IMG/VR virus record: IMGVR_UViG_3300037424_000434
Span: 64,001-128,000 of that record
Length of the DNA: 64,000 nucleotides
Strand: one strand, 5' to 3'
Source of the DNA: a virus
Lineage: Duplodnaviria; Caudoviricetes
The position numbers were made by a program, and so were the translations under genes. Shown piece after piece: positions 9,610 to 40,317 of this stretch (position 1 is the first letter of the stretch; each line of letters begins with the position of its first letter). Under the pieces are notes generated by a model that saw only the letters and a list, made by a program, of their open reading frames with translations, was not told the origin of the DNA and did no database searches.

Positions 9610-9843
9610 CTAACTTCTGTGCAAATTTCCGTGCAACCCACAGTGATCAGCCCAGCAAGTGCAACAGCCATTACTTTGAGCGACCTTCAACGCTTTTTCG
9701 TGAAATTCAACCAGCTCCAGTTTTCCTCTTTTGAGGAGAGCGATATATTCACCGTGACCTCGTTCTGCGAGTGCTACGGCTTGGCTACGGCTCAGGTGGT
9801 TCATCACAGTAAAGATATCCAGTGCCAATTCTTTTTTAAGCAT
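9610..9843 (-). CDS. Early hypothetical protein (MLKKELAL cassette)
   Basis: AGGAG RBS; promoter TTGACA-N17-TATAGT at 9893..9921. Confidence 0.65.
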   Translation of the reverse strand: MLKKELALDIFTVMNHLSRSQAVALAERGHGEYIALLKRGKLELVEFHEKALKVAQSNGCCTCWADHCGLHGNLHRS

Positions 9844-9993
9844 GTCTTTCTCCTATTGGTTGGGGGATTGTCTTGTCGTTTACTATACACAAACTATACA
9901 CCAATAACTATTTGATGTCAACACAAAACAACCAAAGTGGTTTAGATCCACGAACATCAATGATGTCCGTGATGCATTCCTCGTTATTAAAGG

Positions 9994-10335
9994 CTAGTTA
10001 TTTGGACGCGATAGTTCTATACGATCATATAGGTCTTCTAGACTGTTTGTTTGGTCTCTTAGTCTAGTAGATATATAATCAATATCCGAGGCCAGTGGTG
10101 TAAGAAAACCGTTTTCACCTGCTGCATCTTCTTCCGTAGAAACCGGAAGTGCGGGCCTAGTCACGCTTGTTAAAATGTCATTCAGGTGTCTGATAATGGT
10201 TTCATTTCGTTCCAGAGCGGAATAGAGATTGCCCATCGCCTGTGTAATTTCTGCTGTTTTGTTGTTTGTAACTTCCCCTGCCGGGGAGTGGTTTTGTTTT
10301 GTCTTCACGATGCTGTTAGGATCTAGCGTATACAT
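9994..10335 (-). CDS. Hypothetical coiled-coil protein
   Basis: GGAG RBS; 113 aa. Confidence 0.6.
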   Translation of the reverse strand: MYTLDPNSIVKTKQNHSPAGEVTNNKTAEITQAMGNLYSALERNETIIRHLNDILTSVTRPALPVSTEEDAAGENGFLTPLASDIDYISTRLRDQTNSLEDLYDRIELSRPNN

Positions 10336-10359
10336 AAAATTTTCTCCTCTCTAAATATA

Positions 10360-10560
10360 TTAATTAATTTCTTCAAAATTGTCAATAAAATATTGACGTG
10401 CGACATACCACAAATCGGAATGGTTCTTTGGATTCCGGGCTATCATTCCCATATCAGTTTCAGGGAAATCAACATCAGACACAGAAATACCGGTCATATT
10501 CTCTCCCTGAACATACTCTCTCATTTCTGCTACATTGGTCCTTCGATATTTTTTATACAT
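10360..10560 (-). CDS. Conserved small phage protein
   Basis: GGAGG RBS; KYRRTNVAEMREY...MIARNPKNHSDLWYVARQYF resembles a common phage hypothetical family. Confidence 0.65.
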   Translation of the reverse strand: MYKKYRRTNVAEMREYVQGENMTGISVSDVDFPETDMGMIARNPKNHSDLWYVARQYFIDNFEEIN

Positions 10561-31717: not shown

Positions 31718-32533
31718 ATGAAGTGTGAAATATGTAATCGAGATGTTAAATCTTTTGGTTCTCTTGCGCAACATGTAAACAAGACACACAACATATTATC
31801 GGAAGAATATTACAAAAAATATCTTTTGGTTGATTGTTTGTGTGTTGTTTGTTCCAATCCAACACCTTTTATAAATCTATCAAAAGGATACCAGAAAACG
31901 TGTTCCAGAAGTTGTTCGATTAAATATACTAGAAAAAAATTAAAAGAAAATCCTGAACTGCACAAAAAGTTTACCGAAAAAGTTTCATGTAATATGAAGG
32001 AATTGTGGAAAGGGGATGAGATTGGAAGAATTAACCGAATGACAAAAACAAAACAGGTAACCATATCAAATATGTCAGTGGAAGAAAGAAGTGAAAAGTT
32101 TGGTTGGTTGAACAGTGTTCCAGATAATAAAAGGGAATATTATATAGACAGAATTCAAGTGGGGTTAAAACAATGGCATAAAGATGCGTCTGATTCTGAT
32201 TTAAAAGAATTATATGAAAAGGTACGAAGAACAAAATTGGGTGATAGATATTGTGATGAAGTTATGAGTAGATTTTATATGTATAGACAAGAGGTAAGAT
32301 ATTTGACCGAAAAAACATACAAAGAATATAAAGCCATAATAAACCCAAACAACCACGCACGAAGTAAGAATGGTTGGCAATTAGACCATAAATATAGTAT
32401 TGTTAAAGGTTTTGATAACAAAATAGAACCAGAGATTATGGCATCAGTTACAAATCTACAAATATTATCAGCACTTGATAATAACAAAAAGAGTGTTAGA
32501 TGTGATATATCTATAAAAGAGTTATTGTTATGA
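31718..32533 (+). CDS. Free-standing HNH-type homing endonuclease with an N-terminal C2H2 finger
   Basis: CEICNR...LAQHVNKTH; C-terminal LDHKYSI...NLQIL...NNKKS. Confidence 0.75.
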   Translation: MKCEICNRDVKSFGSLAQHVNKTHNILSEEYYKKYLLVDCLCVVCSNPTPFINLSKGYQKTCSRSCSIKYTRKKLKENPELHKKFTEKVSCNMKELWKGDEIGRINRMTKTKQVTISNMSVEERSEKFGWLNSVPDNKREYYIDRIQVGLKQWHKDASDSDLKELYEKVRRTKLGDRYCDEVMSRFYMYRQEVRYLTEKTYKEYKAIINPNNHARSKNGWQLDHKYSIVKGFDNKIEPEIMASVTNLQILSALDNNKKSVRCDISIKELLL

Positions 32534-32997
32534 TAGGTAATATAAAAAAACAGCCATCACATTGTGGATATTATACCCCAGTTTATTATGAAAAATATAC
32601 AGGAAAATTACCGATTAGGATAATGTCATCTTGGGAGGCGGCGTTTTGCCGTTGGGCTGACTATTCTCAGGCAATTGTGAGATGGGCCAGCGAAGATATT
32701 ATTATTAAATTCCAAGATCCCATTGAGCCAGTAAAATACGGAAAACCTCACTGGAGGAGCTATTACCCAGATTTTACAATAGAAACAGAGAAAGGTGAAA
32801 TATTTTTAATAGAAGTAAAACCATTAAAGCAAACAAAACCGCCAGTACGTAGTTCAAAAAAAAGTCAGAAGACATTGTTGTTAGAAATAAAAACATGGAG
32901 AACGAATCAGGCAAAATTTGCTGCCGCCGAAAACTATTGCAAACGCCGGGGCTGGAAATTTAAAATAATAACCGAGAAGGAGTTATTCGGAAAGTAA
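32530..32997 (+). CDS. gp4: Head completion nuclease (T4 gp4-like)
   Basis: SSWE..FC.W.D, WASE, YYPDF, IEVKP..QT..P, NQAKF.AA...C...GWKFKIITEKEL. Confidence 0.9.
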   Translation: MIGNIKKQPSHCGYYTPVYYEKYTGKLPIRIMSSWEAAFCRWADYSQAIVRWASEDIIIKFQDPIEPVKYGKPHWRSYYPDFTIETEKGEIFLIEVKPLKQTKPPVRSSKKSQKTLLLEIKTWRTNQAKFAAAENYCKRRGWKFKIITEKELFGK

Positions 32998-33857
32998 TGG
33001 CGCTAATTTCGGATAGAGATAAGGGGAAATCGACAGCACAGTTTATATGTGATGAATGCTCATCTGTCTTTAAAGGGAACTATTATGTGTTAACAAAAAA
33101 GTATACATTTGTGCAGGAGTTGTTCGTGTAAAAATGGATGGAATCTCAAACATCACAAAAATGGAAAATATTTAACAGAAGAACAGAAATCGTTTATTGT
33201 ATGTTTATATGGAGACAACCAACTAGATGAACATTTTCCTAAAACAAAAACAAATAAACTGAGAATCAAGTGTGGCAAATGTAGTTTGGAGTATGACACC
33301 AATAACTATGATTTTCTTGAAAAATTTCCAAACAATATATGTTCATCGTGTATACAGAAGAGGGTGTGGGTGGAGAATTATGATCAATTTTGTATCACAA
33401 GAAATACCCCGGAATATAAAATCAATATATGTGATTCAGTAAAGACCTCATTAAAACATATTGCATCAAGAAAAACTCTGCCGCAAAAGCCGTTGAGTAT
33501 TGGAATAACGTTAGAGGGTTCACTCGTGAAGAATTGTGGAGTGAATATATGTTGTATAAAAAAATTACTTATAATATGACAGAAAGAGTATACAGACAAT
33601 ATATAAATAAGATAAACCCGAATAACCTAAACAGAACTGACTATCATCTCGATCACATATATTCAATATTAGAGGGGTTTAAAAATAACATACCACCATA
33701 CATTATATCTGATTTATGTAATTTGCAGATGATACCTCGAATTGATAATATCAGAAAAAACTGTAGATGTGATATGACAAAGGAGGAATTGATGATCAAA
33801 ATTTTTGATAAGGAGGACGCGATGGTAGCGGAACAATATAATGGCCTTAAGTGTTAA
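32997..33857 (+). pseudogene. HNH-type endonuclease gene broken by two compensating frameshifts
   Basis: MALISDRD...CDEC (frame 0), shift in the A-run near 33095, CRSC...CGKC (33109 ORF), shift back in the A-run near 33470, LDHIYSI...NLQMI...NIRKN (33534 ORF). Confidence 0.6.
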
Positions 33858-34375
33858 TTACGACAAAAGATTCAAAGGGATTAACTGGAAGTCGGGGCAT
33901 ATTTATAAGTTCCGCTACTCTTGAGTCTGCTTGGGCGCATGACCCTGAGCCTGTTATTATATTAATGTACTCTTTTAGTGGAACTCACCCAAAGACAATG
34001 CATGAATGGCATTTTTTTCAGGGCATCAATTTCACATACATACCTAGGAAAGATAGGGCACAATTTGCTCAAAGATGGATGCAGGTGTGGCAAAAATCAA
34101 ACGGCAACATACAGTTTACTTGGGGAACAGTTCTACAGGAATATCCATATCTCAAACACGCTGTAAGACGCTATTTTTACAAACCAAATTATTATATATC
34201 AAACCCTATAGAAGTTCCCATGGAGGACATGGATAAAGTTGTGGTAAGCACATGGTCCAAGGACTTCAGTAAGAAACTGAGAACCAGTCTGGTCCAAAAG
34301 TTCAAAAAAGCCAAACAGGGCATAGACCGAATGAGAGATTCTATTTCCCCTAGAGGAAAGAAGATGAAAAAATAA
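33851..34375 (+). CDS. gp2: DNA end-protector (T4 gp2-like)
   Basis: GHIYKFRY...HDPEPVI...GINFTYIP...R...KHAVRRY; next to gp4 as in T4-like phages. Confidence 0.7.
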   Translation: MLITTKDSKGLTGSRGIFISSATLESAWAHDPEPVIILMYSFSGTHPKTMHEWHFFQGINFTYIPRKDRAQFAQRWMQVWQKSNGNIQFTWGTVLQEYPYLKHAVRRYFYKPNYYISNPIEVPMEDMDKVVVSTWSKDFSKKLRTSLVQKFKKAKQGIDRMRDSISPRGKKMKK

Positions 34376-34502
34376 TAATTAACAATACCAAACATAAATG
34401 TATATAGAAATCAATATGTTCTTTTTGTATAAAATATAAATACATGTAACCTGTTTCGGTATAGTCGAAACGGTTACCAAATACAATACTTAGGGGTTTC
34501 GC

Positions 34503-34877
34503 ATGTCGGATAGGAATCAGATAGATTCTGGTCGTGCAGGTTGGGATGCATGGGGAAACCACGTCTTAACCACACTCGAAAAACTGGAAAAAAAAGTAGA
34601 CGTACTTGAGGATAAAGTAGGGCTCCATAGAGAACAGACACTTGTAGACATAGCTACATTGAAAGCAAAAGCCGGGGTATGGGGGTCTGTTGCGGGGGTC
34701 ATTGCCTCCTTGATAACGTCTTTGATAGTGGGTTTATTGGTATATCAACTAACACATAATACTATGGATAAAACAACACCTCAACCACGCATCCCTGTTA
34801 CAGGAGAAAGCGTGATACTCCCAAAAGATGATCTATTGGGGGAGTTTCGTCTAAATGTTCATGAGGGGGATGTATGA
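34503..34877 (+). CDS. Single-pass membrane coiled-coil protein (holin/XhlA-like candidate)
   Basis: Coiled coil then the hydrophobic AGVWGSVAGVIASLITSLIVGLLVY; TATAAATA at 34435. Confidence 0.65.
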   Translation: MSDRNQIDSGRAGWDAWGNHVLTTLEKLEKKVDVLEDKVGLHREQTLVDIATLKAKAGVWGSVAGVIASLITSLIVGLLVYQLTHNTMDKTTPQPRIPVTGESVILPKDDLLGEFRLNVHEGDV

Positions 34878-35983
34878 AATGGATTGATAATCTGTCAGAG
34901 AAATTGGCTTCTCATATCGTAAAACATGGGAGTGATCATGTCAAAGACATTAAGATGGAAGGTATTTCTCAAGAAATTGACATATTACGAGAGTTGAAAG
35001 ATGAACTTATCCGAAAAGAATCCGAGCTCGAGTTGTCAAGAATTGAGTGGGATAAAACGTTCGATTCTATAGTAGATCATATAGTCATAATAGACTCTGA
35101 CCTGACCATATCAAAGGCAAACAAATCGTTTATCCAGTACGTCAAAGAACGCGGGGGACCATGGGAGACTTTACTGGGAACTTCTTGGTCAGAGTTCAAG
35201 AAGCACATGGAACTTCCTGATGATATATGCGTTGTGTCTGATTGTTTCGATACCGGCCATCCCATAACAAACAAAATAGAAACCAATGGAACCGTATTCT
35301 TAGTTACGGCTAATCCCATTTTTGGTGACAGTGTTGATGGTCTCGTAGGGGTGGTAAGAATATCTCGAAACATCACAAATTCTGAACAACAATCAAAAAA
35401 ATTAGAACGACGTTCAAGAATATATCATGCTATCTCAGAGATGAGCAAAACACTTGTTAATCATGCGAACTGGAACGATGCGGTTAAACAGATTTTGCGT
35501 GACCTTGGATTGGCTATAGGCGCTAGTCGCGTTTATATATATAGAAATATTGATAGAGAGACAAGAGTATGTTCTGTTTTACAGCACTGTTTCCATAATG
35601 ATAAATATCGTGATTGCACAGCAGGGACCATAAACGAGTGTCTGAATTATGATATGATCCCTGAATGGGAAAAATTAATGACAAAAGGCCAGTCCGTGAC
35701 CGGCACTTTGGTTGAATGTCATATATGTCCGCTAAAACACAATTGCACCTGCACAGATGATGTTGTCGTGGAAGCCGTGCCTATATTTGTTGATGGCAGG
35801 TGGTGGGGTTTTATTGGGTTTGATTATATGAATGGAACCCGTAAATGGAAAGATGATGATGAGACTCTTCTTCGAATAGCGGCTGATGTGCTGGGCGGGG
35901 TGATCTACCACCGGGGCAGATATTGGGATACCATAGCAGAACTTGAAGGATGTGAAGAACAGCTAGAAGTAATAAAAGAATAA
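34874..35983 (+). CDS. PAS-GAF sensor protein without an output domain
   Basis: PAS start EWDKTFDSIVDHIVIIDSDLTISKANKSF; GAF ILRDLGLAIGASRVYIY...AVPIFVDGRWWGFIGFD...W...E..LLRIAADVLG; stops after a short helix. Confidence 0.85.
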   Translation: MKWIDNLSEKLASHIVKHGSDHVKDIKMEGISQEIDILRELKDELIRKESELELSRIEWDKTFDSIVDHIVIIDSDLTISKANKSFIQYVKERGGPWETLLGTSWSEFKKHMELPDDICVVSDCFDTGHPITNKIETNGTVFLVTANPIFGDSVDGLVGVVRISRNITNSEQQSKKLERRSRIYHAISEMSKTLVNHANWNDAVKQILRDLGLAIGASRVYIYRNIDRETRVCSVLQHCFHNDKYRDCTAGTINECLNYDMIPEWEKLMTKGQSVTGTLVECHICPLKHNCTCTDDVVVEAVPIFVDGRWWGFIGFDYMNGTRKWKDDDETLLRIAADVLGGVIYHRGRYWDTIAELEGCEEQLEVIKE

Positions 35984-36075
35984 AAAATATTATAAATAAC
36001 TAAACTTTTATCGTTTACATATTACCATATATGTATTAAGATGTAACATAAATTAAACTGTTGGAGGTATATTAT

Positions 36076-36429
36076 ATGAAATTTCAACTCGGAGAAATCC
36101 GTAACATGAAAGACCCGCTTATCAAACTATTGGAGAAAGAGATTCCAATCAAATCTGCATGGAAACTAAACAAACTGGTCAAAGAGTTTGATAAAGAGTT
36201 ACAAGAAATCGAAGAATTTCGTGTTGGTCTTGTTAAAAAACTAGGAGTAGCCGACGAAGAAGGAAACGTACAAGTCCCCGAAGGAGCAATGAAACAGTTT
36301 GTCGATGAGTTTAATGAACTGTTGGTGGCAGAGGTGGAGATAGGTTATGAACCTATTGAGATTGATAGCATCGGCGATATCCAAGTCAGTGCAAAAGAAC
36401 TTTTGATATTGGACAGGCTTTTCAAATAA
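36076..36429 (+). CDS. Conserved phage protein (DUF1617-like)
   Basis: GGAGG RBS; IPIKSAWKLNKLVK...F..E.NELL..EVEI...I; terminator at 36456..36485. Confidence 0.7.
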   Translation: MKFQLGEIRNMKDPLIKLLEKEIPIKSAWKLNKLVKEFDKELQEIEEFRVGLVKKLGVADEEGNVQVPEGAMKQFVDEFNELLVAEVEIGYEPIEIDSIGDIQVSAKELLILDRLFK

Positions 36430-37242: not shown

Positions 37243-38673
37243 ATGAAGTATTATGGGATAGATATGCAGGGATCACTTCTTGTAGAAGAAAAGGCCACCT
37301 TATCATGGGTAACAGGTGATGATAGAAGACTTGTCAGGAATTCAGTGACTGATAGATTGTATATCGGATCATCCTCTTCTTTCAAAGAGTTATTACAAGA
37401 TATTAATTATGTTACGGGTGGAGGGTTTCCTGCAAACTTCAAAACAGCATTGGACACAACATACCATCCATTAGAAGATCAAAATGTTAGTACCACAGAT
37501 ACCCCCACCTTTACCGGAATAGCAGGAGTGTCAAGAACTGGCGTTGTTGGTGATATCCATATAGGGGTGTCTGCGGGTGCGAGTTCCACAAATACATTTG
37601 GAAGTAATGTTGTTATTGGGTGGGAAGCAGGTGAATTACAAAGCGGTAGTAATGGCGGAAATGTCTTTCTTGGGTACAGGGCAGGGAGACTGTGCTCTAA
37701 TGGAGACAATACTGTTACAACTGGATGCAATGTGGCTATAGGCAGGCTTGCTGGATACAATCTACATGATAGCACTGGAAACTTTTTTGTTGGATCATAT
37801 GCTGGATATTCAAGTGCGGGATCTAATAATATTGGCATTGGATTTAATAATTTAAGTTATAGTTCTTTTAGTGGATCGAATAATATTTCTATTGGCAAAA
37901 GTTCAGGAAAAATATTATCAACCGGGTATGACAACGTTATAATAGGGGATAATGCAGGCACGTTTATGACCACGGGTTACTCCAATACGTTGGTGGGCCG
38001 TTATACTGGTATTAACATAATATCCGGAAGCAAAAATATATGCATAGGTTATGGTGCTAAACCATCATCGGCAACATCATCCAACCAATGTATTATAGGT
38101 GGAACTGGGGCTGATGTAGTGAATGTGGGGATCGGTGGAAACGATAATCCGGCTTTTGCTCTTGATGCCACGGGCGACGTGAATGTGTCCGGTACTTTTA
38201 GAATACTTGGGGTTGATGTGATTGGTTCTTTAGGGGTGTCAATTGTTCCGACAGCGGCTGTCATGGCATTTGCTACAGTGACAGTCCCTTATGGTTGGTT
38301 GCCATGTGATGGGGGGACATACTCCAACACTACTAGTGGTGGTCTATACAATGCTCTGTGGTTAAAAATTGGAACAACATATGGTGGTACTGGGGCAACA
38401 AATTTTAAAGTTCCTGATCTCAGAGGATACTTTGTGAGGGGATCTGACGCAGGCAGAGGAGTTGATACAGGTAGAACTTTTGGGTCAAACCAGACGGATG
38501 GATTTAGAGCACATACACATACATATCAAGACATCAGTACCGGTCCTGCAGGGGGATATGATGTAACATCAAGTTCTCCTACTCAAGGACTGAAAATACT
38601 TGCAACCAGTAGTGCTGGTGGTACAGAAACAAGACCGTATAACATTGCATTACAGTATTGTATAAAATATTAA
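37243..38673 (+). CDS. Tail fibre protein with a C-terminal tail-collar domain
   Basis: N(V/I)xIGxxAG repeats; PTAAVMAFA...GWLPCDG...FKVPDLRGYFVRG...ETRPYNIALQYCIKY. Confidence 0.88.
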   Translation: MKYYGIDMQGSLLVEEKATLSWVTGDDRRLVRNSVTDRLYIGSSSSFKELLQDINYVTGGGFPANFKTALDTTYHPLEDQNVSTTDTPTFTGIAGVSRTGVVGDIHIGVSAGASSTNTFGSNVVIGWEAGELQSGSNGGNVFLGYRAGRLCSNGDNTVTTGCNVAIGRLAGYNLHDSTGNFFVGSYAGYSSAGSNNIGIGFNNLSYSSFSGSNNISIGKSSGKILSTGYDNVIIGDNAGTFMTTGYSNTLVGRYTGINIISGSKNICIGYGAKPSSATSSNQCIIGGTGADVVNVGIGGNDNPAFALDATGDVNVSGTFRILGVDVIGSLGVSIVPTAAVMAFATVTVPYGWLPCDGGTYSNTTSGGLYNALWLKIGTTYGGTGATNFKVPDLRGYFVRGSDAGRGVDTGRTFGSNQTDGFRAHTHTYQDISTGPAGGYDVTSSSPTQGLKILATSSAGGTETRPYNIALQYCIKY

Positions 38674-38739: not shown

Positions 38740-40317
38740 ATGGCAAAATGGTATGATAATTTGTTTGGAAATCAACCACATAGGATTGACGAGCAAATAG
38801 AAGCTTTTAAAAAAGTAGGAGATAACAAGAATCAATCCAAAGCAAGACAAGGCGAAGGGTTTGAGGATATTGATTTCATTCTCCATGGTCAATACAATTC
38901 TCTTGGGTTTAATAGTTTTTACAACACATATATTAATAAGTCTTTCGAAAATGAACTACAAAGACTTAAAGCATATCGCGAAATGTCTGCTTATCCAGAA
39001 ATCGCTGATGTTATTGAAGACGCGGCTATGGAATCCACCCAAGAAGATATGAATGGCAGGGTGGTAGAACTTCAAATAGTTGATGAGGATCTACTATCAA
39101 ACAAAAACGTTGTCAGTAATGTACAAAAAGAATTCCGTGAATTGTTCTACAGAAAGACAAAGATTAAATGGGAAATATGGAATCTAATGTACAACTATTT
39201 CGTTGATGGTAAAGTATATTTCGAACATTTAGTTGACCAAAATAATCCAAAGGGAGGGTTAATTGGGATAAAAAGGTTACCTTCGGAGACGATGGATTTT
39301 GAATATGATCCTATAACAGGTAACATTGTTGCATATTATCAATATCTGGCACAACGTCCTAGACAGAGACCACCGACAGTAAAAGATGCTAACGAAGATC
39401 CCACCATAATAGTATTTTACCCTGAACAGATAAGTCTGGTTCATTATGGATATCAAGGAGCAACTAAAAGAGAATTTCTAGGTTACCTTGAAAAAGCAAA
39501 ACAACCATACAACAATTTACGATTATTGGAAACATCTGTTGTGATTTATAGGTTGATTCGTGCTCCCGAAAGATTCGTGTTTCGTATTGACACGGGGAAC
39601 ATGCCCAAAGATAAAGCCATGAAGTACGTGGAAAAAATTAAACAAAAGTTTCAAAAAAGGCAAACGTATGACGCGGAAACTGGTCGTTTGACCAATGATC
39701 CTGAGGTATTTTCCATACTTGAGAACTTTTTTTTGCCACAGTCTGCTGATGGTCGTGGGTCTCAGGTCGATAGTGTTGGTGGTAATCCCAGTGGATTTGC
39801 CGAGCTTGACGATCTTTACTATTTCCAACGGAAGTTATACAAATCACTTAAATATCCGGCATCTCGGGTGTCATCCCTACAAGAACGTGCTGAGTCCGAC
39901 ATTATGTTTAACAGCGGACAGATGGGGGAAATAACTCGTGATGAGATTAAATGGGCCAAATTTTTAGAGCGCCAACAAATGCGATTCTGTGATGCCTTTC
40001 TGAAAATGTTTCTGACCCACTTAGAGCTGATAGGAATGAAGAAACAATATGACTTGGATGAGGACAAACTACGTATAATCATGACATCCCCTAACAACTA
40101 TAGGGACCACATGAAACAGAAATTACTCGAACAAAATTTCACCAACTATCAATCATTGTCAAGAGAGGAAGAATTCTCTAAATACTATCTAATGAAGAAA
40201 TATCTTGGATGGAATGATGATGAAATTGAGGCGAATATTGCTGGATTCAAGATGGACAAAAAACTTAAACCAGAGGAACCGGAAGGGGATGGTGAGGGTA
40301 GTAAGTTCAATTTTTAA
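38740..40317 (+). CDS. gp20: Portal protein (T4 gp20-like)
   Basis: YREMSAYPEIADVIED, VIYRLIRAPERFVFRIDTGNMP, LENFFLP...GRGSQVDSVGG, YFQRKLYKSLKYP.SR, ITRDEIKW.KF. Confidence 0.96.
   Translation: MAKWYDNLFGNQPHRIDEQIEAFKKVGDNKNQSKARQGEGFEDIDFILHGQYNSLGFNSFYNTYINKSFENELQRLKAYREMSAYPEIADVIEDAAMESTQEDMNGRVVELQIVDEDLLSNKNVVSNVQKEFRELFYRKTKIKWEIWNLMYNYFVDGKVYFEHLVDQNNPKGGLIGIKRLPSETMDFEYDPITGNIVAYYQYLAQRPRQRPPTVKDANEDPTIIVFYPEQISLVHYGYQGATKREFLGYLEKAKQPYNNLRLLETSVVIYRLIRAPERFVFRIDTGNMPKDKAMKYVEKIKQKFQKRQTYDAETGRLTNDPEVFSILENFFLPQSADGRGSQVDSVGGNPSGFAELDDLYYFQRKLYKSLKYPASRVSSLQERAESDIMFNSGQMGEITRDEIKWAKFLERQQMRFCDAFLKMFLTHLELIGMKKQYDLDEDKLRIIMTSPNNYRDHMKQKLLEQNFTNYQSLSREEEFSKYYLMKKYLGWNDDEIEANIAGFKMDKKLKPEEPEGDGEGSKFNF

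What the first reader, a model, noticed from the sequence alone, without database searches (positions are those of the whole stretch)
34435..35983. Late-promoter operon: membrane protein coupled to an orphan PAS-GAF sensor
TATAAATA (34435) and a 5' hairpin (34446..34477) precede a single-TM coiled-coil gene that overlaps (ATGA) a coiled-coil-PAS-GAF gene with no kinase, GGDEF or HTH output. The GAF has a Cys/His-rich stretch (ECHICPLKHNCTC). Such input modules are normal in bacterial and archaeal histidine kinases but unusual among phage morphogenesis genes. Inference: a ligand- or redox-sensing lysis-timing switch acting on a holin-like partner, or a dominant-negative decoy for host two-component sensors.
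Basis: partly seen in the sequence, partly recalled or inferred. Interest (0 to 1): 0.68.

Follow-up and report, generated by a model that had tools for sequence, protein, structure and literature searches.

The report
Phage membrane protein coupled to sensor
An uncultured 236-kb T4-like sediment phage, like its relatives, carries two tightly coupled late genes, one for a small membrane protein and one for a cysteine-rich sensor-type protein with no output part, which probably lets the phage tie a late membrane event such as lysis to the state of its host.

Summary
A TATAAATA late-promoter motif at 34435 precedes a 124-aa single-helix membrane protein (34503-34877). Its stop overlaps (ATGA) the start of a 369-aa coiled-coil-PAS-GAF protein (34874-35983). 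The whole phage genome has no kinase, receiver or GGDEF domain. The 5' hairpin exists but is neither significant nor conserved.

About 40 metagenomic phage homologues have the same length (352-383 aa, 41-64% identity), so this is not a decaying kinase. Eight cysteines are conserved in them. The cellular relatives (27-32% identical, all multidomain kinases or sigma-54 activators) have none of these cysteines. The histidines of the noted stretch are not conserved.

The membrane protein always accompanies the sensor. It belongs to a much wider phage family (short forms 67-88 aa, including phrog_1103). In at least four other lineages that family sits beside unrelated output-less PAS proteins, in either gene order. 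In about 35 marine contigs it sits alone between terminase and portal.

Best reading (0.4): a membrane-anchored redox or metal sensor module that controls its membrane partner, most likely in lysis timing. A role in membrane-bound head assembly is a serious rival; a decoy for host kinases is unlikely. No function was tested. The scan found the same kind of pair earlier in another genome.

The parts
34435..34442 (+). TATAAATA, a T4-type late-promoter-like motif 61 nt upstream of the membrane-protein ATG
   Evidence: 17 copies in the window against 7.4 expected; genome-wide, 49% of copies lie within 150 nt upstream of a same-strand gene, against 17% for permuted motifs. Not found within 120 nt upstream of the membrane gene in the relatives examined.
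34446..34477 (+). Imperfect hairpin in the presumed 5' leader
   Evidence: -14 kcal/mol, z -1.22, and 27 of 200 shuffles fold as well. No T-run follows it. Not conserved. Probably of little significance.
34492..34496 (+). Shine-Dalgarno-like AGGGG for the membrane-protein gene
   Evidence: Read from the sequence.
34503..34877 (+). 124-aa bitopic membrane protein. It has a conserved N-terminal helix (GWxxWxxHVLxxLEKLE), a TM helix at about residues 57-84 with the ladder G61-G65-S69-S73-G77, and a variable disordered 40-aa tail.
   Evidence: Invariant residues are W14, W17, K54, K56, G61, G65 and G77. It is the long form of a wide phage family whose short forms include phrog_1103.
34863..34877 (+). 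Coupling junction: GAGGGGG Shine-Dalgarno sequence, then ATGA (start and stop overlap by 4 nt)
   Evidence: The same 4-nt or 1-nt overlap is seen in all relatives examined.
34874..35983 (+). 369-aa cytoplasmic protein: N-terminal helix (residues 2-18), coiled coil (31-65), PAS (about 66-168), linker helix (168-196), GAF (about 200-345), C-terminal helix to residue 368. No output domain.
35069..35377 (+). PAS domain, with conserved C119 (35/40) and C124 (40/40) at the start of and within a helix (residues 120-127)
   Evidence: Z 12.7, rmsd 2.1 A to 3a0v; profile match to 3lyx, E 1.6e-3.
35471..35908 (+). GAF domain, with conserved C233, C248, C256, C282, C285, C291 and the motif AVPIFVDxxWWGFIGFD
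   Evidence: PF01590, 27.9 bits; Z 15.1.
35717..35752 (+). Cys-rich loop CHICPLKHNCTC (residues 282-293), modelled with low confidence
   Evidence: The cysteines are conserved and the histidines are not. The cellular homologues have no cysteines here.
35991..35998 (+). Next TATAAATA, 8 nt after the PAS-GAF stop codon; it starts the following late unit (gene at 36076)

Best explanation
The two genes encode a two-protein, membrane-anchored sensor module that is made late in infection.

Shown: the pair is conserved and translationally coupled. The membrane protein belongs to a family that recurs next to different PAS or GAF proteins. The PAS-GAF protein has no output domain and carries a family-specific set of eight cysteines.

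Inferred, input side: the PAS-GAF protein is cytoplasmic, having no signal peptide or TM helix. It probably dimerises through its long helices. Its cysteines, six of them in the loops between the GAF strands, would hold a metal or iron-sulfur centre or act as a thiol redox switch. That centre would read the redox or energy state of the anaerobic host.

Inferred, output side: the sensor docks on the long cytoplasmic helix of the small membrane protein. That protein's TM helix carries a conserved small-residue ladder suited to self-association. The sensor's state would set whether the membrane protein oligomerises, and so time a late membrane event. The most likely event is membrane permeabilisation or lysis, with the pair working like a holin and its cytoplasmic antiholin.
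For: Pairing. The membrane gene lies immediately upstream, with a 4-nt or 1-nt overlap, in every relative with enough flank. This covers six lineages: the window, L001, L005, L010, L181 and the TGA=W-recoded L147. Nineteen contig lengths recur in both homologue lists.

Recurrence with other sensors. Short-form relatives of the membrane protein sit next to unrelated output-less PAS proteins:
- L172: 74 aa followed by a 455-aa protein with about three PAS domains, 4-nt overlap.
- L174: a 397-aa PAS protein followed by 78 aa.
- L177: a 135-aa PAS protein followed by 70 aa.
- L200/L209: a 134-aa PAS protein followed by 79 aa.
The partners share little beyond their N-terminal coiled coil.

Not a decaying kinase. 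The 40 homologues are 330-383 aa long, and there are no output domains anywhere in the genome.

Cysteines. C124 and C285 are conserved in 40/40, C291 in 39, C248 and C282 in 38, C233 and C256 in 37, and C119 in 35. The cellular homologues, which do share the GAF core, have none of them. P0032 and P0033 lose C233, C256 and C282 together. The Cys loops are the low-confidence parts of the model.

Precedents. A GAF domain that binds a redox-active [3Fe-4S] cluster is described in PMC6949291. Phage GAF-fold proteins that are mostly membrane-anchored are described in PMC12481020. T4 holin T is regulated by the cytoplasmic RIII and the periplasmic RI (PMC8385771).

Membrane partner. The TM ladder G61/G65/S69/S73/G77 is invariant or nearly so.

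Timing and lysis-like contexts. A late-promoter motif precedes the pair. Two short-form contexts resemble lysis regions: L177 has a lysozyme gene 0.7 kb away, and in L176 the gene follows a large tail-like gene.
Against: In this genome the pair is far from the endolysin (genome 211108-211683). It is also far from a spanin-like pair that has its own adjacent small membrane protein (genome 9434-10454).

No holin model matches the partner.

About 35 of the 53 IMG/VR loci of the membrane family that were examined place it between terminase and portal, with no sensor beside it. Here and in L001, L147 and L174 the pair lies within 3 kb of the portal gene. Both facts fit a head-assembly role as well.

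The membrane topology (N-terminus inside) is inferred only from the invariant K54 and K56 and the lack of a signal peptide.

The cysteines could be structural zinc sites. The L147 homologue lacks the cysteine set, so the cysteines are not essential to the module as such.
Confidence: 0.4

Rival explanations
1. Head-assembly module. The small membrane protein anchors or initiates portal and prohead assembly at the inner membrane, doing the job annotated for T4 gp40. The PAS-GAF protein is an accessory regulator or chaperone of that step.
For: The family sits in a tight unit between Terminase_6N and Portal_T4 genes in L178/L179, and about 35 IMG/VR loci show the same size pattern. The gene order is gp2-like, membrane protein, PAS-GAF, then portal within 3 kb, in the window, L001 and L147; in L174 the order is portal, PAS protein, membrane protein. 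T4 gp40 is annotated as a membrane-associated initiator of head vertex assembly.
Against: There is no similarity to gp40, which has no TM helix. In the relatives with 78% portal identity the pair lies about 14 kb from the portal. The contexts of L172 (after the DNA polymerase III alpha gene), L176 and L177 are not head regions. I know of no case where a sensor domain gates capsid assembly.
Confidence: 0.2
2. Non-sensing scaffold. The PAS-GAF fold has been reused as a structural or adaptor protein at the membrane, and the cysteines are structural zinc sites with no signalling role.
For: The L147 homologue keeps the module without the cysteine set. No ligand can be named. PAS and GAF folds are common protein-protein interaction modules. 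The closest GAF structures are a mixed set of GAF domains with unrelated roles.
Against: The membrane family repeatedly pairs with diverse PAS proteins from different PAS subfamilies. That pattern suggests the sensor function is what is being selected. The cysteines lie in the loops between the GAF strands, which are the low-confidence parts of the model rather than the strands and helices.
Confidence: 0.15
3. A protein acting on the next host or on superinfecting phages. The pair is made late, then either packaged and injected or left in the membrane to block superinfection.
For: It is expressed from a late promoter next to a gp2-like DNA-end protector gene, and gp2 is a packaged, injected protein. 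T4 superinfection-exclusion proteins are small membrane proteins (the Imm and Sp annotations).
Against: There is no conserved L-x-E cleavage or targeting signal at the N-terminus: LSE here is LSR in many homologues. A membrane partner argues against packaging. The T4 exclusion genes are early genes, not late ones (general knowledge of T4).
Confidence: 0.08
4. Dominant-negative decoy that forms heterodimers with host PAS-GAF kinases and silences them.
For: It keeps the coiled-coil linkers that mediate dimerisation in kinases. The cellular relatives are multidomain kinases and sigma-54 activators of sediment anaerobes.
Against: The best cellular identity is 27-32%. The cysteine set is phage-specific. 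The constant, co-translated partner is a phage membrane protein. Late expression leaves little time to rewire host transcription.
Confidence: 0.07

Closest known systems
PAS-GAF input modules of cellular multi-sensor histidine kinases and sigma-54 activators (for example REC-PAS-GAF-PAS-HisKA-HATPase in CAFBRK010000137.1, Olavius symbiont Delta 3; PAS-GAF-PAS-AAA-HTH in a Thermodesulfobacteriota MAG)
   Same: They are homologous over the coiled coil, PAS, linker helix and GAF (residues 31-347, 24-32% identity). They share the GAF core motif AVPIFVDxxWWGFIGFD.
   Different: The phage protein ends after the GAF helix with no kinase, AAA or HTH output. It has eight conserved cysteines that the cellular proteins lack. 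It is always paired with a small membrane protein.
T4 holin T with its antiholins RIII (cytoplasmic) and RI (periplasmic) (PMC8385771, PMC12162936)
   Same: It works alike in outline. Both involve a late, single-TM membrane protein (N-terminus predicted inside here) whose behaviour would be set by a soluble phage protein that carries information about conditions.
   Different: There is no sequence relationship: PF11031 is absent from the genome. The partner has only a short, variable external tail instead of T's globular domain. The regulator is a 369-aa PAS-GAF protein. No link to endolysin is seen in this genome. Lysis function was not tested.
Viral cyanobacteriochrome-like GAF-fold proteins with an N-terminal TM helix (PMC12481020)
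   Same: These are phage-encoded GAF-fold proteins without output domains that are predicted to sit at the host membrane. Several of that paper's BFVD entries appear among the Foldseek hits of this model.
   Different: Those proteins are single polypeptides of about 190-260 aa (TM plus GAF) with no PAS domain. Here the anchor is a separate, co-translated protein of a distinct family, and the sensor is PAS-GAF with a cysteine set. There is no sequence homology to those proteins.
CSK/Hik2 GAF domain with a redox-responsive [3Fe-4S] cluster (PMC6949291); also the thiol-based GAF-fold enzyme fRMsr (PDB 3mmh)
   Same: They set a precedent for GAF domains that use cysteines for iron-sulfur or thiol redox chemistry. 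fRMsr is among the best structural matches (Z 14.1), tied with other GAF domains.
   Different: The cysteine positions and number are unrelated. The cofactor here is purely inferred. CSK is a kinase and fRMsr is an enzyme.
T4 gp40, the membrane-associated initiator of head vertex assembly
   Same: It is a small phage protein acting at the membrane near the portal, so it is a functional analogue for the rival reading.
   Different: gp40 has no TM helix and shows no similarity (hhalign probability 0.1%).

Membership tests
GAF domain (Pfam PF01590) | Profile match above the curated threshold, and the GAF fold | tested here: met
   27.9 bits against a cut-off of 22.4, residues 202-342. Z 15.1, rmsd 3.0 A over 159 residues to 3k2n.
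PAS fold | Five-stranded antiparallel sheet with flanking helices, and a significant profile or structure match | tested here: met
   Pfam PAS_9 and PAS_4 are sub-threshold for this sequence alone (17.6 and 16.7 bits). The family profile matches PAS structure 3lyx (E 1.6e-3). The model gives Z 12.7, rmsd 2.1 A over 92 residues to 3a0v. Some homologues carry PF08448 or PF13426 hits.
Two-component sensor histidine kinase | HisKA/DHp phospho-acceptor domain plus HATPase_c catalytic domain | tested here: not met
   Neither is present in the protein. There is no HATPase_c anywhere in the 236-kb genome, and no receiver domain.
Diguanylate cyclase or other enzymatic sensor | GGDEF or another catalytic output domain | tested here: not met
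Holin (functional class), for the 124-aa partner | Small membrane protein with at least one TM helix | tested here: met
   One hydrophobic helix at residues 57-84.
Holin (functional class), for the 124-aa partner | Genetic linkage to endolysin or spanin genes | tested here: not met
   In this genome the endolysin is at 211108-211683 and a spanin-like pair at 9758-10454, while the gene is at 98503. Among the short-form relatives examined, only one locus has a lysozyme gene nearby (L177).
Holin (functional class), for the 124-aa partner | Match to a described holin family model (including T4 holin T, PF11031) | tested here: not met
   No holin family in Pfam or PHROGs. PF11031 is absent from the genome. 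XhlA matches in 1 of 18 members at E 0.22 only.
Holin (functional class), for the 124-aa partner | Timed, lethal hole formation that releases endolysin | not testable with these tools
   Needs expression and complementation assays.
Wide phage family of small coiled-coil/TM proteins (short forms include phrog_1103) | Shared core GWxxWxxxVLxxLxxL ... IATLKVKAGVWGxxxG detected by profile search | tested here: met
   A profile built from the long forms finds 554 proteins at E<=0.01. The short forms score E 1e-13 to 1e-7 and align throughout. Short form P0245 matches phrog_1103 at E 1.3e-6. The window protein itself matches no PHROG.
Iron-sulfur or metal-thiolate sensor (NreB-like or CSK-like) | Three to four conserved cysteine ligands grouped in space, and a bound cluster | tested here: inconclusive
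   Eight cysteines are conserved in 35-40 of 40 homologues, and three are lost together in two homologues. Distances within the model could not be read with these tools. The cofactor needs biochemistry.
Phytochrome / cyanobacteriochrome | Bilin-binding cysteine and pocket residues, and light-dependent chemistry | not tested
   Phytochromes are among the top Foldseek hits only because they share the PAS-GAF arrangement (10-15% identity, rmsd 18-20 A over both domains). There is no evidence for bilin binding.

The most novel reading that the evidence does not exclude
Many phages share one small membrane effector, the coiled-coil/TM family that includes phrog_1103. Different lineages have plugged different output-less PAS or PAS-GAF sensor proteins onto it. 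This would give strictly lytic phages a modular decision circuit in which a late, irreversible membrane event (lysis, or the start of head assembly) depends on the host's redox, energy or metabolite state. In this clade the sensor would have evolved its own cysteine-bound metal or redox centre inside a GAF domain.
Probability: 0.25. Interest if true: 0.8.

Novelty: new variant of a known kind. Interest (0 to 1): 0.6.

Why it matters
The best-studied case of a lytic phage adjusting lysis timing is the T-even lysis-inhibition system. If this pair works as proposed, a cytoplasmic sensor reading host physiology and acting through a dedicated membrane partner would be a second, mechanistically different route. 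It would also be widespread in uncultured T4-like phages of sediments and groundwater.

Three further points follow. The pair gives a concrete partner, and so a testable hypothesis, for a large phage membrane-protein family of unknown function; that family is conserved between terminase and portal in many marine phages. It offers a candidate cysteine-based redox or metal centre in a GAF domain, for which I found only one precedent. And it shows that sensor domains captured from cellular kinases can be kept for long periods as stand-alone proteins, here even across a change of genetic code.

Tried and rejected
- blastn and tblastn of the region and of the PAS-GAF protein against 50,697 GenBank phage records found nothing. 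tblastn of two short-form membrane proteins also found nothing.
- Sequencing runs: three sediment metagenomes hold the stretch and no RNA holder is listed. I did not lay reads.
- The 5' hairpin as a regulatory element: not significant and not conserved.
- A programmed frameshift fusing the two ORFs, which would place the PAS-GAF protein outside the cell: there is no slippery site, a strong Shine-Dalgarno sequence and an ATG are present, and both 1-nt and 4-nt overlaps occur in relatives. Rejected.
- An N-terminal L-x-E capsid-targeting or cleavage signal: not conserved.
- One JGI name for the partner, 'tetrahydromethanopterin S-methyltransferase subunit B', has no Pfam support.
- The ESM Atlas lead to DUF7201 was not confirmed by hmmscan on long or short forms.
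- Weak generic 'coiled coil plus TM' hits (CorA, ZapG-like, DUF5849, XhlA at E 0.22, DUF2730) are all below threshold.
- T4 gp40 homology: none.
- The 131-aa gene after the membrane gene in L176 has an H-x6-D ... H-x-H pattern that made me suspect a cell-wall peptidase. Pfam, PHROGs and PDB sequence searches give no support, so I do not claim it.
- Presence or absence of the pair in 80 portal-centred loci was uninformative. In the closest relatives (78% portal identity) the pair lies about 14 kb from the portal, beyond the 10-kb flank.
- Foldseek hits to 'class III holin' entries in BFVD (E 4e-4 to 1e-3) are weak fold-level resemblances to the GAF half. They are not evidence that this protein is a holin.
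Full report
**What is there.** The window is part of a 235,765-bp IMG/VR virus record, 98% complete, found in sediment metagenomes. It is a distant T4-like phage. Around the finding lie a gp2-like DNA-end protector gene (33851-34375; phrog_429, E 8.7e-7), a short-tail-fibre-like gene with a Collar domain (37243-38673) and a T4-type portal gene (38740-40317; PF07230, E 8.6e-94).

- TATAAATA at 34435-34442.
- A 6+7-bp hairpin at 34446-34477.
- AGGGG at 34492-34496, upstream of the first start codon.
- A 124-aa ORF at 34503-34877.
- A 369-aa ORF at 34874-35983 whose ATG overlaps the upstream TGA (ATGA) and is preceded by GAGGGGG.
- A second TATAAATA at 35991, 8 nt after the second stop codon, heading the next gene.

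**Promoter and hairpin.** TATAAATA occurs 17 times in the window against 7.4 expected, and none of 100 shuffles reaches 17. Over the whole genome, 24 of 49 copies (49%) lie within 150 nt upstream of a same-strand gene start and 55% are intergenic. Permuted versions of the motif give 17% and 21%, in a genome that is 88% coding. TATAAATA is the established T4 late-promoter consensus, so late expression is a fair inference for this phage.

The hairpin folds at -14 kcal/mol but is not exceptional (z -1.2; 27 of 200 shuffles fold as well). It has no T-run. Neither the hairpin nor the motif appears within 120 nt upstream of the membrane gene in the relatives I examined; there the pair follows other genes. 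What is conserved is the gene pair, not its leader.

**The PAS-GAF protein.** Pfam finds a GAF domain above threshold (27.9 against 22.4 bits) and PAS_9 and PAS_4 just below threshold. An AlphaFold2 model built from 30 homologues has mean pLDDT 81. It shows, in order:
- a short N-terminal helix (residues 2-18);
- a long helix (31-65);
- a PAS domain (strands between 69 and 166);
- a linker helix (168-196);
- a GAF domain (200-318);
- a long C-terminal helix (327-368).

Domain by domain, the GAF part matches solved GAF domains at Z 13-15 (3k2n: rmsd 3.0 A over 159 residues). The PAS part matches solved PAS domains at Z about 12.7 (3a0v: rmsd 2.1 A over 92 residues). Foldseek puts phytochrome PAS-GAF modules and DosP on top. 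The protein has no TM helix or signal peptide. The genome has no HATPase_c, receiver or GGDEF domain, and this gene is its only PAS match. It is therefore a truly output-less input module.

**Not a decaying kinase.** A search of 5.8 billion proteins returns about 38 metagenomic proteins of 330-383 aa that are 41-64% identical over 94-100% of the query. Then comes a gap, followed by multidomain signalling proteins. The exhaustive profile-free search gives the same picture: four family representatives and three fragments, then very long multi-GAF proteins at 24-28% identity over the GAF domain only.

In one genome per species of 185,579 prokaryotes, the best relatives are 27-32% identical. They come from Desulfobacterota, Calditrichota, Chloroflexota and other MAGs. 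The four I examined are REC-PAS-GAF-PAS-HisKA(-HATPase) kinases, a further PAS-GAF kinase with HisKA_3 and HATPase_c, and a PAS-GAF-PAS-sigma54-AAA-HTH activator.

**The cysteines.** In 40 family members, conservation is as follows:

| Residue | Conserved in |
|---|---|
| C124, C285 | 40/40 |
| C291 | 39/40 |
| C248, C282 | 38/40 |
| C233, C256 | 37/40 |
| C119 | 35/40 |
| C293 | 27/40 |
| H283, H289 | 8/40 and 7/40 |

Two cysteines lie at the start of and within a PAS helix (residues 120-127). Six lie in or beside the loops between the GAF strands, and these loops are the low-confidence parts of the model. Two homologues (P0032, P0033) have lost C233, C256 and C282 together while keeping the others, which hints at two separate sites.

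The cellular homologues align through the whole PAS-GAF unit and share AVPIFVDxxWWGFIGFD, but they have none of these cysteines. For a cytoplasmic protein, the simplest readings are metal or iron-sulfur ligation, or a thiol redox switch. A GAF domain carrying a redox-active [3Fe-4S] cluster is documented for CSK/Hik2 (PMC6949291). The thiol enzyme fRMsr is one of the tied best structural matches. All of this is inference; no cofactor can be shown here.

**The membrane partner.** The 124-aa protein is modelled as one long helix (residues 8-89) with a disordered tail. Close homologues (120-130 aa) conserve four things:
- GWxxWGNHVLTTLEKLE near the N-terminus;
- the invariant K54 and K56 just before the hydrophobic stretch;
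- a ladder of small residues on one face of the TM helix (G61, G65, S69, S73, G77, all invariant or nearly so);
- little else in the 40-aa tail.

I infer an N-terminus-inside topology from the lysines and the lack of a signal peptide. I infer self-association from the ladder. Neither was tested.

**Pairing with the sensor.** The membrane gene sits immediately upstream of the PAS-GAF gene, with a 4-nt or 1-nt overlap, in every related locus with enough flank. That covers L001-L003, L005-L011, L181 and L147. Nineteen contig lengths occur in both homologue lists.

L147 is a T4-like phage that reads TGA as tryptophan. Read that way, it has the order gp2-like (45% identical to the window's), membrane protein (113 aa), PAS-GAF (352 aa, 24% identical, without the cysteine set), portal. 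The module is therefore old. The cysteine set is a later addition within one branch.

**The wider membrane family.** A profile of the long forms finds 554 proteins at E<=0.01, mostly 67-88 aa. These consist of the same N-terminal helix and TM helix without the tail, and share the signature IATLKVKAGVWG. One of them matches phrog_1103, a family of unknown function. Their neighbourhoods are informative:

| Locus | Arrangement |
|---|---|
| L172/L173 | 74 aa, then a 4-nt overlap into a 455-aa protein with about three PAS domains; follows a DNA polymerase III alpha gene |
| L174/L175 | portal, 397-aa PAS protein, 78 aa |
| L177 | tail-fibre-like gene, 135-aa PAS protein, 70 aa; lysozyme gene 0.7 kb away on the other strand |
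| L200/L209 | 134-aa PAS protein, then a 4-nt overlap into 79 aa |
| L176 | 756-aa tail-like gene, then 76 aa |
| L178/L179 | terminase, 71 aa, T4-type portal, tightly packed |

About 35 of the 53 IMG/VR loci examined show the same size pattern as L178/L179.

The PAS partners in these lineages share hardly anything with each other or with this PAS-GAF protein beyond the N-terminal coiled coil. In yet another T4-like phage (L157), a GAF-only protein of 234 aa overlaps an unrelated 214-aa coiled-coil protein with a C-terminal TM helix, 3.4 kb upstream of the portal. The recurring theme is an output-less PAS or GAF protein next to a small coiled-coil membrane protein, in either order and in different genomic settings. 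This is the strongest evidence that the two proteins work together.

**What it does.** The evidence supports a membrane-anchored sensor module. It does not settle which membrane event the module controls.

For a lysis-timing role:
- the pair is expressed late;
- the TM helix looks built to oligomerise;
- two short-form contexts resemble lysis regions (L176, L177);
- T4 offers the precedent of a single-TM holin controlled by soluble antiholins, one of them cytoplasmic (PMC8385771, PMC12162936).

Against a lysis-timing role:
- in this genome the endolysin (GH108-like N-terminal motif, genome 211108-211683) is 112 kb away;
- a gene pair with classic spanin architecture lies at genome 9758-10454, a TM-plus-coiled-coil protein overlapped by a lipoprotein gene, directly preceded by a 103-aa membrane protein that is a more conventional holin candidate (no PHROG support);
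- no holin model matches the partner.

The frequent position beside terminase, portal and gp2-like genes supports the rival that the family acts in membrane-bound head assembly. T4 does this with gp40, which is unrelated. The decoy idea fits poorly with the low identity to any cellular protein and with the phage-encoded partner.

I put the sensor-plus-membrane-effector reading with lysis timing as the output at 0.4. Head assembly is at 0.2, a non-sensing scaffold at 0.15, and the rest are lower.

**Novelty.** I found no paper describing a phage PAS-GAF protein: a search for bacteriophage, PAS domain, GAF domain and phage-encoded together returned nothing. The nearest report is of GAF-fold phage proteins that mostly carry their own N-terminal TM helix (PMC12481020). 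Several of those BFVD entries are among this model's Foldseek hits, as are two entries named class III holin.

The scan had already noted the same kind of pair on another genome and reached a similar reading (e1-5379833). I re-derived its claim that the membrane family recurs with other sensors. I found only weak support for its claim of linkage to a lysis enzyme. I rate this a new variant of a known kind, namely stand-alone sensor modules and holin-antiholin-like control, of moderate to high interest.

Noticed in passing
L147:1498-4991: This distant T4-like phage contig (portal 52% identical) reads TGA as tryptophan. The PAS-GAF, gp2-like, membrane-protein and portal genes are all open only under code 4, and the in-frame TGAs fall where relatives have W. 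Gene order is the same as in the window.
   Followed up: partly
Own genome outside the window: G000:C1:9434-10454 (L240:435-1455): A likely lysis cluster. It holds a 103-aa membrane protein, then a 143-aa protein with an N-terminal TM helix and a coiled coil, overlapped by a 105-aa lipoprotein gene (lipobox LSGC). That is the classic overlapped i-spanin/o-spanin architecture. PHROGs gives no functional name.
   Followed up: partly
L157:5871-7200: Another T4-like phage has a stand-alone GAF protein (234 aa, PF01590). It overlaps by 20 nt a 214-aa coiled-coil protein with a C-terminal TM helix that is unrelated to the family studied here. That second protein has a sub-threshold DUF2730 hit, which I recall (not checked here) to be the family of the phage Mu releasin gp25 described in PMC9239132.
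   Followed up: partly
BFVD hits of model m301fb74fedc0: Entries named 'Holin' and 'Class III holin' (Proteus phages phiP4-3 and Stubb, about 207-218 aa) and many of the 'viral cyanobacteriochrome-like GAF fold' entries of PMC12481020 fall in the same Foldseek neighbourhood. Some of those N-terminal-TM GAF-fold proteins might be T4-type holins.
   Followed up: no
L001:10448-12457 and L174:854-4834: The portal genes of related phages are interrupted by inteins (Pfam Intein_splicing inside Portal_T4; one protein is 1326 aa with two inteins). This adds to the intein load already noted for this phage group.
   Followed up: no
L182:1863-2978 (also L005): In the relatives with 78% portal identity, the gene directly upstream of the membrane gene encodes a 371-aa protein. 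Its GIGLDVGTGF motif looks like an actin/Hsp70-fold ATPase.
   Followed up: no
window:31712-33857: A 273-aa ORF and a 107-aa ORF share a C-terminal block (LDH.YSI..GF.N.I.P ... N...C.CD). They flank a TnsA-like endonuclease gene (32530-32997). They look like repeated homing-endonuclease-type genes just upstream of the gp2-like gene.
   Followed up: no
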